This document shows positions 7,716 to 9,263 of a stretch of DNA of 64,000 nt, piece after piece. Numbering within the stretch: the stretch's first letter is position 1; each line of letters begins with the position of its first letter. Source of the stretch: Escherichia coli (GTDB lineage: Bacteria; Pseudomonadota; Gammaproteobacteria; Enterobacterales; Enterobacteriaceae); assembly GCF_051903065.1 (NCBI RefSeq), contig NZ_CP178438.1; one strand, 5' to 3'. The translations under genes and the position numbers were made by a program. A model generated the notes under the pieces. It saw only the letters and a list, made by a program, of their open reading frames with translations. It ran no database searches and was not told the DNA's origin.

Positions 7716-9263
7716 AGACTGAAGCGCCACGGTTTTAACAGCCCCCTCTGAGTCATTAAAAATGGATTAAAGAGAAGTGTCCATGAGCGGTAAGCGTTAT
7801 CCCGAAGAGTTTAAAATTGCAGCGGTAAAAATGTTGCTTACATCTATCTGGCATCAGGAAAATCTGTGCCCAAACGGGTAATCCGCACACAATCGCCTCA
7901 ACAACTGGACAGGCTCTGAGGCCAATATAATAGTCAGGTTCCGATTGTGCAGGTGCAACCTGTCACCATTTCTCAGTACGCTGCAACTTTTGCTGGCAGG
8001 GGATTAATTTCACACTACCTGATATTCGGTCTCATTTCCCAGCATCGACCAGATTATTCGCGCGTTTTTGTTAGCGACCGCCACGGTCGTTTTATTAAAT
8101 CCGCGCCGTTCCTTTAACTGGTTAACCCACTGATTAATATGACTATCATTGTTATTCGTGGCATCCCTGACGACAGCTCGGGCACCATGAATAAAAAGTG
8201 TTCTCAGATGCTTGTCGCCTTTTTTCGTCATATTCATCAGCACCTGCCTGTAGCCACTCGAATGCTGGCGTGGAACCAGACCCAGCCATGCAGCAAAGTG
8301 GCGGCCATTCTTAAATTCAGTTCCTTTGCCAATAGCAGCAACAACGGCCGTGGCCGTTTTAGGGCTAATACCTTTAACTTGGGCGATACGCTGACAGGCT
8401 TCTAATTGCCTGAATACTGTTTCAATTTCCTTATCAAAAAAATGGATCCGACGCTTGAGATCGTTAAAGAGATCATAGAGTTCGGCAATCGTCCTGCGCA
8501 TTCTAACGCTAAGACCATTTTCAGCATCTTCAAGGATAAGCGGTACAGCACGACTAACTCTTGAGACTACCGCGCCAATTGGTTATTCCCCGATCAAGCA
8601 GCAGTCCCCGGATTTGACAGACTGTCGCAGTACGATGATTGACAATACGCTGTCTTGCACGGTGCAGAGCCTGAATATCCTGCTGTTCAGGGCTTTTCGG
8701 TGGAACAAACTGCATCGTAGGTTGCATCAGACCCACAGCAATCGCCTACGCATCGTTACCATCATTTTTTGCCCTCGGACAAAAGGTTTTACATATTGGG
8801 GGCTGATGACTTTTACGTTATGACCCAGTTTCTCAAACTCACGCTGCCAGTAAAATGCCCCGGTGGACGCTTCGCTCCCAATCAGACATGCAGGAATATT
8901 TGCCAGCGTCTGGAGCAATTCTTTTCGGCCAGTGCGTTTCGTAAAAACCGGTTTACCGGCCTAGTTTAACCAGCAGATCTGAAAAACATTTTTAGCCAGA
9001 TCAATACCCAGAAATACGATCTTCATGGTGATTCTCCTGGTGAACACATTTCGTATAGTTAACCTTAGAGGGAGGAGGTAGTCCATCCCATTAACTGGAA
9101 GTCCAGATATGACGGCATAGAAAAAATCAAGGTTCTTAAGGACAGAACCACCGTCTCAAACAGATGTTTGCTGACCTGAGTCTGGAAAACCGGGGGCTGA
9201 AAGACATTATCAAAAAAGCTTTAAAACCAGCCTTTAAGCGTGAGCTGGTCACTCATCTGATAA
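7716..9263. mobile_element. Nested IS remnants: an IS3-family element split by an IS110-family insertion
   Basis: IS3-family OrfA N-terminus (MSGKRYPEEFKIAAVK..., ATG 7783, early stop at 7883) and an OrfA C-terminal/slippery-site fragment (…FADLSLENRGLKDIIKKAL…, about 9130-9263) flank the IS110-family transposase pseudogene. The right side is truncated by the IS911-like element at 9264. Confidence 0.5.
8010..9027 (-). pseudogene. IS110-family transposase pseudogene
   Basis: N-terminus MKIVFLGIDLAKNVFQIC... (ATG at 9027-9025) and C-terminus ...NKNARIIWSMLGNETEYQVV are recognisable, but the frame is broken by two in-frame TAG codons (WLN*AGKP, NDA*AIA) and at least two frameshifts. Confidence 0.7.

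What the first reader, a model, noticed from the sequence alone, without database searches (positions are those of the whole stretch)
7716..9263. Nested IS remnants with an IS110-family transposase carrying two in-frame amber codons
An IS3-family orfA is split (N-terminus at 7783, C-terminus with slippery site near 9130-9263) around an IS110-family transposase whose reading frame has two TAG stops (WLN*AGKP, NDA*AIA) and at least two frameshifts. The IS911-like element abuts at 9264. This layering marks the stretch as a long-standing insertion hotspot; the amber codons are most simply decay.
Basis: seen in the sequence. Interest (0 to 1): 0.3.

Follow-up and report, generated by a model that had tools for sequence, protein, structure and literature searches.

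The report
Dead ISSaen1-like element nested in IS3 debris
This stretch of an E. coli chromosome is a pile of broken insertion sequences whose centrepiece is a long-dead, end-truncated copy of an ISSaen1-like (IS110/IS1111-family) element; its stop codons and frameshifts are ordinary decay, and it lies inside an IS3-type gene because this element family always inserts at one conserved site in such genes.

Summary
On the minus strand, 8010-9026 is an IS110-family transposase pseudogene with two in-frame TAG codons (8961-8963, 8746-8748) and two frameshifts (A6 run 8765-8770; +1 base at 8581-8582). RefSeq already annotates it as 'IS110 family RNA-guided transposase; frameshifted; internal stop'.

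The closest intact relative is ISSaen1 of Salmonella (91% aa). It has CAG (Gln) at both TAG positions. Both ambers are absent from the nearest E. coli copy. Substitutions among close E. coli copies are spread evenly over codon positions. All of this indicates decay, not recoding.

Only 9094-9263 is the true host. 7720-7831 is the left end of a different IS3-family element, joined by a deletion that also removed the last ~45 bp of the ISSaen1-like element.

The nesting is not a locus hotspot. At least 15 independent relatives in about ten genera sit at the same Y|NWK codons of IS3-family orfA, antisense. They have IS1111-type ends and a downstream non-coding region carrying a 9-nt copy of the target. 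The IS911-like insertion at 9264 is a later layer than this mosaic. The finding is ordinary and of low interest.

The parts
7720..7831 (+). Element A: left-end fragment of an IS3-family element. It holds the IRL (TGAAGCGCCACGG...), the leader, and orfA codons 1-16 (ATG at 7783). It is not the host of the IS110-family element.
   Evidence: 87% identical to the left end of an intact IS3-family element with a programmed frameshift in strain E41 (L008). The homology stops at 7830-7836, and TGTTG at 7832-7836 is shared by both partners.
7832..9093 (-). ISSaen1-like IS1111-type (IS110-family) insertion sequence. About 1262 bp remain of roughly 1305 bp; the right end is truncated.
   Evidence: 90.2% nt identity to Salmonella ISSaen1 over 1271 bp. 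Alignment with five other copies. Ends defined by empty-site comparison and by the 7/3 terminal-extension rule of PMC11187229.
8010..9026 (-). Transposase pseudogene (DEDD domain plus Transposase_20 domain).
   Evidence: PGAP annotation: 'IS110 family RNA-guided transposase; frameshifted; internal stop'.
8961..8963 (-). Amber codon no.1 (codon 22). CAG became TAG at the inner C of a CCAGG site (AACCAGGCC to AACTAGGCC).
   Evidence: The intact relative P0001 has Gln here. The closest E. coli copy L002 still has CAG.
8765..8770 (-). Frameshift no.1: the A7 run is shortened to A6 (codons 86-87).
   Evidence: The same loss is seen independently in Edwardsiella piscicida, where it is the only lesion.
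8746..8748 (-). Amber codon no.2 (codon 94). CAG became TAG, two codons after the catalytic NDGND motif.
8581..8582 (-). Frameshift no.2: a +1 base insertion (AACCAA versus AACAA) near codon 149. It is specific to the window lineage.
7832..8009 (-). Remnant of the downstream non-coding region (putative seekRNA region). It lacks the last ~45 bp, including the right sub-terminal inverted repeat and the -35 half of the circle-junction promoter.
7901..7909 (-). The 9-mer TCCAGTTGT (on the minus strand), identical to the target top strand across the insertion point. Candidate target guide.
   Evidence: A junction-spanning match of 9 nt or more occurred in 21 of 2000 shuffles. It lies in an internal loop of the predicted hairpin.
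9074..9093 (-). Left end of the element: the 13-bp sub-terminal inverted repeat (9074-9086) plus the 7-bp terminal extension (9087-9093).
   Evidence: Rule from PMC11187229.
9094..9263 (+). Element B: fragment of the true host, an IS3-family element. It covers orfA from the NWKSRY codons to just past the A AAA AAG slippery site (9212-9218). It is itself decayed, with a 15-bp deletion, two 1-bp deletions and a TAG.
   Evidence: Alignment to the intact element in L009. Uninterrupted copies occur in 554 records.
9264..12791 (+). IS911-like IS3-family element (IRL TGTAGTGGCAC...). It was inserted into element B and is itself split by a group II intron (about 10036-12305). It is a later layer than the A|IS|B mosaic.
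   Evidence: Strain MIN10 has the same mosaic, but element B continues past the position of 9263. Intron domain V/VI at 12218-12304. ltrA annotated. The right end was read.

Best explanation
The region is a four-layer stack of insertion-sequence wreckage.

1. An ISSaen1-like IS1111-type element inserted into the orfA of an IS3-family element (element B). The site was the conserved ...TYY|NWK... codons (DNA target TTCCAGT|TGTA), in antisense orientation. The insertion was probably guided by an RNA (seekRNA / bridge RNA) made from its downstream non-coding region.
2. The transposase gene then died and drifted neutrally. It lost one A from an A7 run, gained one base about 190 nt downstream, and suffered two CAG-to-TAG transitions. 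One of these is at a CCAGG Dcm-methylation site, a classic amber hotspot.
3. An illegitimate deletion joined an internal point of a second, unrelated IS3-family element (element A) to an internal point of the ISSaen1-like element. This removed the ISSaen1-like element's right end and the N-terminal part of element B.
4. An IS911-like element, carrying a group II intron in the window copy, later inserted into what was left of element B at 9263/9264. The rest of element B is missing from the window.

Nothing in the stretch can now transpose or make a transposase.

Shown: the anatomy, the lesions, the site specificity, and that the IS911-like insertion came after the mosaic. Inferred: RNA guidance, the Dcm deamination origin of amber no.1, and the relative timing of the gene's death (step 2) and the element A deletion (step 3), which was not resolved.
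For: Lesions mapped against an intact homologue. P0001 (ISSaen1 family, 340 aa, 91% identity, E=5e-201) has Gln (CAG) at both amber positions and A7 at the frameshift.

The ambers are private to the window lineage. The closest other E. coli copy (L002, 6% divergent) keeps CAG at both positions.

Neutral drift. Within E. coli sub-lineages, substitutions split about evenly over codon positions (window vs L002: 24/19/19). Between sub-lineages and against ISSaen1, 52-71% fall at third positions. The copies were therefore once under selection and have been dead for a long time.

Every E. coli copy examined carries its own further set of stops and indels.

The A-run is a recurrent mutation hotspot. 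A6 is the only lesion in an E. piscicida copy. Copies in E. anguillarum, Klebsiella, Providencia, Morganella, a Halothece MAG and Escherichia sp. have A7 and are intact.

Two different IS3 elements flank the IS.

Site specificity. At least 15 distinct flanks in Escherichia, Salmonella, Phytobacter, Pectobacterium, Mangrovibacter, Providencia, Rahnella, Edwardsiella, Klebsiella, Morganella and MAGs mostly rebuild S(E/N)A(T/S)(Y/F)YNWK, with variant motifs at the same site in the rest. All are in the same orientation. The Salmonella host orfA looked only about half identical by eye to the E. coli host orfA, while the transposases are 91% identical (by-eye reading). These are therefore independent insertions.

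IS1111-type ends. There is a 13-bp sub-terminal inverted repeat, 7-bp and 3-bp terminal extensions, no target duplication, a downstream non-coding region, and TTGCAA-N17-GATAAT formed at the circle junction (criteria from PMC11187229).

The non-coding region contains TCCAGTTGT, identical to the target across the crossover point. This occurred in 21 of 2000 shuffles.

Layer order. MIN10 has the mosaic without the IS911-like insertion.
Against: - RNA guidance is not demonstrated for this element. Rfam 15 has no matching family.
- The non-coding region is too conserved for covariation analysis: 1 compensatory pair out of 61.
- The proposed second guide strand pairs with the target only if U:G wobbles and a one-base bulge are allowed, and it does not co-vary cleanly with the target.
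- The A6 state is shared by both E. coli sub-lineages even though their divergence shows past purifying selection. This requires either parallel loss or a functional A6 state.
- The E. piscicida A6 copy comes from a draft assembly and could be a homopolymer sequencing error.
- Amber no.2 is not in a Dcm site.
- The precise event that made the element A / ISSaen1-like junction cannot be reconstructed. Only 5 nt of microhomology (TGTTG) are visible.
Confidence: 0.9

Rival explanations
1. The interruptions are programmed. The A6 run would be read by -1 ribosomal or transcriptional slippage (CAA AAA|A AT restores exactly ...GQKNDG...), and the TAG codons would be read through. The copy would then still make some transposase.
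For: The A6 state occurs in both diverged E. coli sub-lineages and, as the sole 'lesion', in an E. piscicida copy. A -1 slip on AAA restores the exact protein sequence (read directly).
Against: - Of 14 loci found across species, 12 have A7, and 7 of those encode a complete or near-complete, uninterrupted transposase.
- The window needs a second, lineage-specific +1 insertion to get back into frame.
- Both TAGs are private to this lineage; L002 has CAG.
- Within-lineage substitutions are neutral.
- All E. coli copies carry additional, different stops and indels.
- CAA AAA A is not a canonical X XXY YYZ heptamer.
- The right end is missing, so the element could not move even if protein were made.
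Confidence: 0.04
2. This is a single IS3-family orfA split by the IS110-family element. The nesting would mark a chromosomal insertion hotspot.
For: IS3-type orfA pieces lie on both sides, in the same orientation. Several further ISs and an intron are stacked next to it.
Against: - The left piece covers orfA codons 1-16 of an MSGKRYPEEFK-type element. The right piece starts near codon 41 of an MRKARFTEHQ-type element.
- There is no nucleotide similarity between the right piece and the left-type element.
- Copies with the complete host show the true N-terminus and the full right end of the IS.
- The same IS-in-orfA arrangement recurs in about ten genera at unrelated loci. It therefore follows the target sequence, not the locus.
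Confidence: 0.03
3. The stops and frameshifts are sequencing or assembly errors in an intact gene.
For: One lesion lies in a homopolymer, a typical error site.
Against: An identical sequence is found in 87 independently sequenced complete genomes. Two lesions are base substitutions. Truncation of the element end is structural.
Confidence: 0.01

Closest known systems
ISSaen1 (IS110 family in ISfinder; NCBI 'IS110-like element ISSaen1 family transposase', Salmonella enterica)
   Same: 91% aa and 90% nt identity. Same left end and sub-terminal repeat, same downstream non-coding region, and the same target (Y|NWK codons of an IS3-family orfA, antisense).
   Different: The window copy is dead (two ambers, two frameshifts) and lacks its last ~45 bp. 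It carries the 14-bp extra segment in the non-coding region that is also seen in the other relatives examined apart from the Salmonella ISSaen1 copy. At 90% nt identity it would count as a distinct IS rather than an isoform.
IS1111-family seekRNA-guided elements such as ISEc11, ISKpn4 and ISPa11 (Siddiquee et al. 2024, PMC11187229)
   Same: DEDD transposase, 11-13 bp sub-terminal inverted repeats, 7-bp left and 3-bp right terminal extensions, no target duplication, non-coding region downstream of tnp, a promoter assembled at the circle junction, and short RNA segments matching both target strands with the top-strand match on the 5' side (searches compared).
   Different: The target sequence differs. 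No experiment exists for ISSaen1: the RNA, the circle and transposition are all inferred.
[quoted passage not shown]
   Same: An IS110/IS1111-superfamily element whose specific target lies inside IS3-family elements: an IS that parasitises other ISs.
   Different: A different sub-family (non-coding region upstream, no sub-terminal repeats) and a different site in the IS3 element (orfB catalytic codons versus orfA helix-turn-helix codons).
IS621 bridge-RNA recombinase system
   Same: Same protein family (NF033542 'IS110 family RNA-guided transposase'). Internal-loop guides that read both strands of the target around a short core.
   Different: IS621 has its RNA upstream and a CT core. Here the RNA region is downstream, and only one nucleotide (T) is shared between the donor junction and the target.
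Amber hotspots at CCAGG Dcm sites in lacI (Coulondre and Miller 1978; from my own knowledge)
   Same: Amber no.1 is CCAGG to CTAGG at the inner, methylated cytosine, turning a CAG Gln codon into TAG.
   Different: Amber no.2 (GCGCAGG to GCGTAGG) is a plain C-to-T transition outside a Dcm site.

Membership tests
IS110 family (DEDD transposase) | N-terminal DEDD/RuvC-like domain (PF01548) plus C-terminal Transposase_20 domain (PF02371); NCBIfam NF033542 | tested here: met
   PF02371 at 1.1e-23 and PF01548 at 5e-5 on ORF fragments. NF033542 scores 321 bits against a cut-off of 140 on the stitched translation. The motifs GIDLAK, GSEAS, NDGND and RQHSSG are all still readable.
IS110 family (DEDD transposase) | A single uninterrupted transposase reading frame (a functional copy) | tested here: not met
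   Two TAG codons and two frameshifts relative to P0001 and L006. PGAP marks it as a pseudogene.
IS1111 sub-family | Sub-terminal inverted repeats of 11-13 bp with asymmetric terminal extensions (7 bp left, 3 bp right) | tested here: met
   ATGGACTACCTCC (13 bp) is present at both ends of the complete relatives. Comparison with uninterrupted element B (ACCTACTACAACTGGAAG) places the ends at TAATGGG... and ...AGA. In the window only the left repeat survives (9074-9086).
IS1111 sub-family | Long non-coding region downstream of tnp; no target-site duplication; fixed orientation in a specific target | tested here: met
   About 200 nt lie between the stop codon and the right end, against about 70 nt upstream. 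The occupied site differs from the empty site by the IS only. At least 15 targets all share the same site and orientation.
IS1111 sub-family | Circular intermediate with a promoter formed at the abutted ends | tested here: inconclusive
   Joining the ends in silico gives TTGCAA-N17-GATAAT. No experimental circle exists. The window copy lacks the -35 half.
seekRNA / bridge-RNA guided transposition | RNA derived from the non-coding region that carries segments complementary to both target strands and is required for transposition | tested here: inconclusive
   One 9-nt segment identical to the target top strand spans the crossover. The second strand match needs wobbles and a bulge. There is no Rfam model and no useful covariation. 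Expression and requirement cannot be tested with these tools.
IS3 family (flanking fragments A and B, and the IS911-like element) | orfA with an HTH_Tnp_1 domain, an A AAA AAG -1 frameshift into a DDE orfB, and TG...CA terminal repeats | tested here: met
   The fragments align at 87-96% identity to elements annotated 'IS3 family transposase, programmed frameshift'. NF033516 hits on their orfA products are below the cut-off because only orfA was given. A slippery site lies at 9212-9218. IRLs start with TG at 7720 and 9264.
Programmed recoding (stop-codon readthrough or programmed frameshift) | The recoding site is conserved in otherwise intact homologues, with purifying selection downstream of it | tested here: not met
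   The TAGs are absent from all relatives except a parallel one in L004. Intact homologues have A7 and CAG. The substitution pattern within the lineage is neutral.

The most novel reading that the evidence does not exclude
The ISSaen1 clade is a dedicated 'hunter of IS3 elements'. It would be an IS1111-type element whose downstream RNA is tuned to the conserved (Y/F)Y-NWK codons of IS3-family orfA, possibly using U:G wobble to tolerate synonymous variation. It thereby knocks out the transposase gene of its host IS wherever it lands. In the papers I could search, this target is not described for ISSaen1. The insertion pattern itself is shown here; the RNA guidance is the untested part.
Probability: 0.6. 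Interest if true: 0.35.

Novelty: already known. Interest (0 to 1): 0.2.

Why it matters
For genome annotation it matters little. The stretch is inert IS debris that RefSeq already flags as pseudogenes.

Two points are of modest use:

- It is a worked example of why an apparently 'split' gene around an inserted element should be checked against intact copies. Here the two halves belong to different elements, and a deletion is hidden at the junction.
- The comparison shows that ISSaen1-type elements insert at one conserved site of IS3-family orfA in many enterobacterial genera. It also identifies their likely guide segment and ends. That would give experimenters a natural RNA-guided recombinase with a known 12-16 nt target, and it is a case of one mobile element inactivating another.

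Tried and rejected
- Rfam 15 scans of an intact ISSaen1 locus and of window 7000-13500 gave no bridge-RNA or seekRNA family. The only hits were isrC/isrN on the IS911-like end and group II intron domain V.
- RNAalifold on 13 non-coding regions gave a long hairpin with an internal loop but only 1 compensatory pair out of 61, so structure is unsupported by covariation.
- I looked for a second guide strand. The loop strand CUAUUAUAUUGG / UUUUUAUACUGG can pair with the target top strand only with U:G wobbles and a one-base bulge, and it does not co-vary consistently with targets (by eye). It is kept as a speculation only.
- Programmed -1 slippage at the A run was tested with a cross-species DNA scan and rejected as unlikely.
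- Amber readthrough was rejected because the TAGs are private to the lineage and the evolution is neutral.
- Sequencing error was rejected because 87 genomes are identical.
- The 'single split orfA' model was rejected.
- I tried to reconstruct the event behind the element A / IS junction. Only a 5-nt microhomology was found, and no ancestral state turned up among the genomes sampled.
- A literature search for ISSaen1 found only passing mentions and a row in an identity matrix next to IS1111A.
- ISfinder itself is not available here, so elements A, B and the IS911-like element remain without ISfinder names.

Full report
WHAT IS THERE

The window is E. coli chromosome. The segment 7700-9300 is 99.9-100% identical to 87 complete genomes. 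In one of them PGAP annotates the following (locus coordinates minus 301 give window coordinates):
- a YadA-like adhesin gene (window 6264-7580 by PGAP; the ORF list starts it at 6258)
- an 'IS110 family RNA-guided transposase; frameshifted; internal stop' pseudogene (8010-9026, minus strand)
- two IS3-family pseudogene fragments
- a group II intron reverse transcriptase
- a further IS3-family fragment

THE OBSERVATION

There is a frame change after ...PFVRGQK and another after ...LLLDRGI. Pfam and NCBIfam place the product in the IS110 family.

The closest intact protein is the 340-aa 'ISSaen1 family transposase' of Salmonella (P0001, 91% identity, E=5e-201). Its DNA (L006) aligns with the window at 90.2% over 1271 bp.

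Against that reference the window copy has five lesions:
1. Codon 22 changed from CAG to TAG (8961-8963).
2. One A was lost from an A7 run at codons 86-87 (8765-8770).
3. Codon 94 changed from CAG to TAG (8746-8748).
4. One base was gained near codon 149 (8581-8582), which returns the reading to the original frame.
5. The last ~45 bp of the element were lost.

The first amber is AACCAGGCC to AACTAGGCC. This is a C-to-T change at the inner cytosine of a CCAGG Dcm site, the classical amber hotspot (my own knowledge; the sequence change itself is read directly).

DECAY OR RECODING?

I aligned four other E. coli copies taken from different contexts: plasmid L002, and chromosomal L003, L004 and L005. 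All are pseudogenes with their own stops and indels.

They form two sub-lineages.
- Within a sub-lineage, substitutions are spread evenly over codon positions (window vs L002: 24/19/19 at 6.2% divergence; L003 vs L005: 9/8/8).
- Between sub-lineages and against ISSaen1, 52-71% of changes are at third positions.

The genes were once under purifying selection and have since drifted neutrally for a long time. Both ambers are absent from L002. Nothing suggests readthrough.

One feature needed a closer look. The A6 state is shared by both sub-lineages, and a -1 slip on AAA would restore the exact protein.

A pattern scan of one genome per species found 14 loci. Twelve have A7, and seven of those encode a complete or near-complete, uninterrupted transposase. 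These are two copies in Edwardsiella anguillarum and one each in Klebsiella, Providencia, Morganella, a Halothece MAG and an Escherichia sp. Two loci have A6. One of them, in E. piscicida, carries A6 as its only lesion.

I read this as a homopolymer mutation hotspot hit repeatedly. I cannot formally exclude slippage and give it about 4%.

THE FLANKS

- The left piece (7720-7831) is the IRL, leader and first 16 codons of an MSGKRYPEEFK-type IS3-family element. It is 87% identical to an active-looking 11-copy element in strain E41.
- The right piece (9094-9263) has no similarity to that element. It belongs to an MRKARFTEHQIIAV...ISEATYY|NWKSRYGG-type IS3-family element (element B). Uninterrupted copies of element B with a programmed frameshift exist in 554 records.
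- In L002, L003 and L005 the ISSaen1-like element is complete at its right end and is preceded by the N-terminal part of element B.
- In the window that part and the last ~45 bp of the IS are gone, and element A is fused at an internal point of both partners. Only TGTTG is shared at the joint. The joint is therefore a deletion or illegitimate recombination, not a transposition end.
- Element B's fragment is itself decayed, with a 15-bp deletion, two 1-bp deletions and a TAG.
- Strain MIN10 carries the same A|IS|B mosaic, but element B continues beyond the position of 9263. The IS911-like insertion at 9264 is therefore a later layer than the mosaic. The rest of element B does not reappear after the right end of the IS911-like element (about 12791), so more sequence was lost there.

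WHY AN IS110-FAMILY ELEMENT SITS IN AN IS3 orfA

Comparing the occupied and empty sites of element B fixes the ends. The empty site is ...ACCTACTACAACTGGAAG.... In transposase orientation the element runs from TAATGGG-ATGGACTACCTCC... to ...GGAGGTAGTCCAT-AGA. The target is TTCCAGT|TGTAGTAGG, with a one-base (T) ambiguity and no duplication.

This matches the IS1111-family signature described by Siddiquee et al. (PMC11187229):
- 11-13 bp sub-terminal repeats
- 7-bp left and 3-bp right terminal extensions
- a non-coding region downstream of tnp
- a specific target and a fixed orientation

Joining the ends in silico gives TTGCAA-N17-GATAAT, a near-consensus promoter across the junction, as reported for that family.

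I then collected relatives from Salmonella, Phytobacter, Pectobacterium, Mangrovibacter, Providencia, Rahnella, Edwardsiella, Klebsiella, Morganella, Escherichia sp. and MAGs. Every copy lies antisense inside an IS3-family orfA. For at least 15 distinct flanks, most rebuilt empty sites translate to S(E/N)A(T/S)(Y/F)YNWK(S/K/A)(K/R)(Y/F)G. A few are variants at the same motif.

The host IS3 elements are far more diverged than the inserted elements. By eye, the E. coli and Salmonella host orfA products looked only about half identical, against 91% for the transposases (a by-eye reading, not a computed figure; for the transposases). These are therefore independent, site-specific insertions.

The conserved downstream region contains TCCAGTTGT, which is identical to the target top strand across the crossover point. 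A junction-spanning match of this length occurred in 21 of 2000 shuffles. The 9-mer sits in an internal loop of a long predicted hairpin. The opposite loop strand could read the other DNA strand only with wobbles and a bulge.

RNA guidance is therefore a well-motivated inference, not a demonstration. The same paper reports a precedent for this superfamily targeting IS3 elements: ISEc21, which targets the DDE codons.

According to that paper, an intact target flank on both sides and the non-coding region are both needed for excision. The window copy lacks its right end and right flank. It is immobile even if a transposase were supplied in trans.

VERDICT

The finding is correct as an observation and correct in calling the ambers decay. 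It is wrong in the detail that one orfA is split, and imprecise in attributing the nesting to a locus hotspot. The object is a known kind of thing that public annotation already flags. The only mildly new element is the clear target rule for the ISSaen1 clade.

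Noticed in passing
window 9332-9454 (+) and 9223-9314 (-): Rfam isrC (150 bits, full length) and a marginal isrN hit (43.9 bits against a cut-off of 44) fall on the left end and orfA start of the IS911-like element and the adjoining element B fragment. These Salmonella 'island sRNA' families seem to be modelled on IS3-family sequence.
   Followed up: no
window about 10036-12305 (+): A group II intron splits orfB of the IS911-like element after ...GDITY. It has an ltrA-type reverse transcriptase/maturase (ORF 10691-12214) and domain V/VI at 12218-12304. The exact boundaries were not mapped.
   Followed up: partly
L034 523-556 (Edwardsiella piscicida ACC35.1), compared with L037 and L038 (E. 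anguillarum): This ISSaen1 copy differs from intact relatives only by A6 instead of A7 in the same run that is shortened in all E. coli copies. It is either a recurrent homopolymer loss or an assembly error in a draft genome.
   Followed up: partly
window codon 22 (8961-8963) and L004: The same CAG-to-TAG change at codon 22 occurs in the window copy and in L004, which belongs to the other E. coli sub-lineage. This implies a parallel mutation or gene conversion between copies.
   Followed up: no
window 1155-1929 and 5373-6143: Two IS1 copies in inverted orientation bracket a PDDEXK-like family gene, a hypothetical gene and an IS630 remnant. This is a possible composite or invertible segment.
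   Followed up: no
window 6258-7580 and 7660-7690: A YadA-like trimeric autotransporter adhesin gene (440 aa) with a strong terminator hairpin lies immediately upstream of the IS debris. Only 31 of the 87 genomes that share the IS mosaic also share this upstream gene, so the mosaic occurs in more than one context.
   Followed up: partly
window 32122-57467: The window is co-linear with strain GDSC2BY4G up to 32122 and again from about 57467 (the fimH/gntP/uxu region). In between, the window carries about 25 kb that the reference region lacks, where that strain has an ISKpn26 next to a truncated fimH. The island contains a CP4-like module (CbtA/YeeU, antirestriction, DUF932).
   Followed up: no
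L029 5501-6634 (strain MIN10): A different, intact IS110-family transposase gene (1134 bp) sits a few hundred bp downstream of the same mosaic in strain MIN10, between IS66 and IS3 fragments.
   Followed up: no
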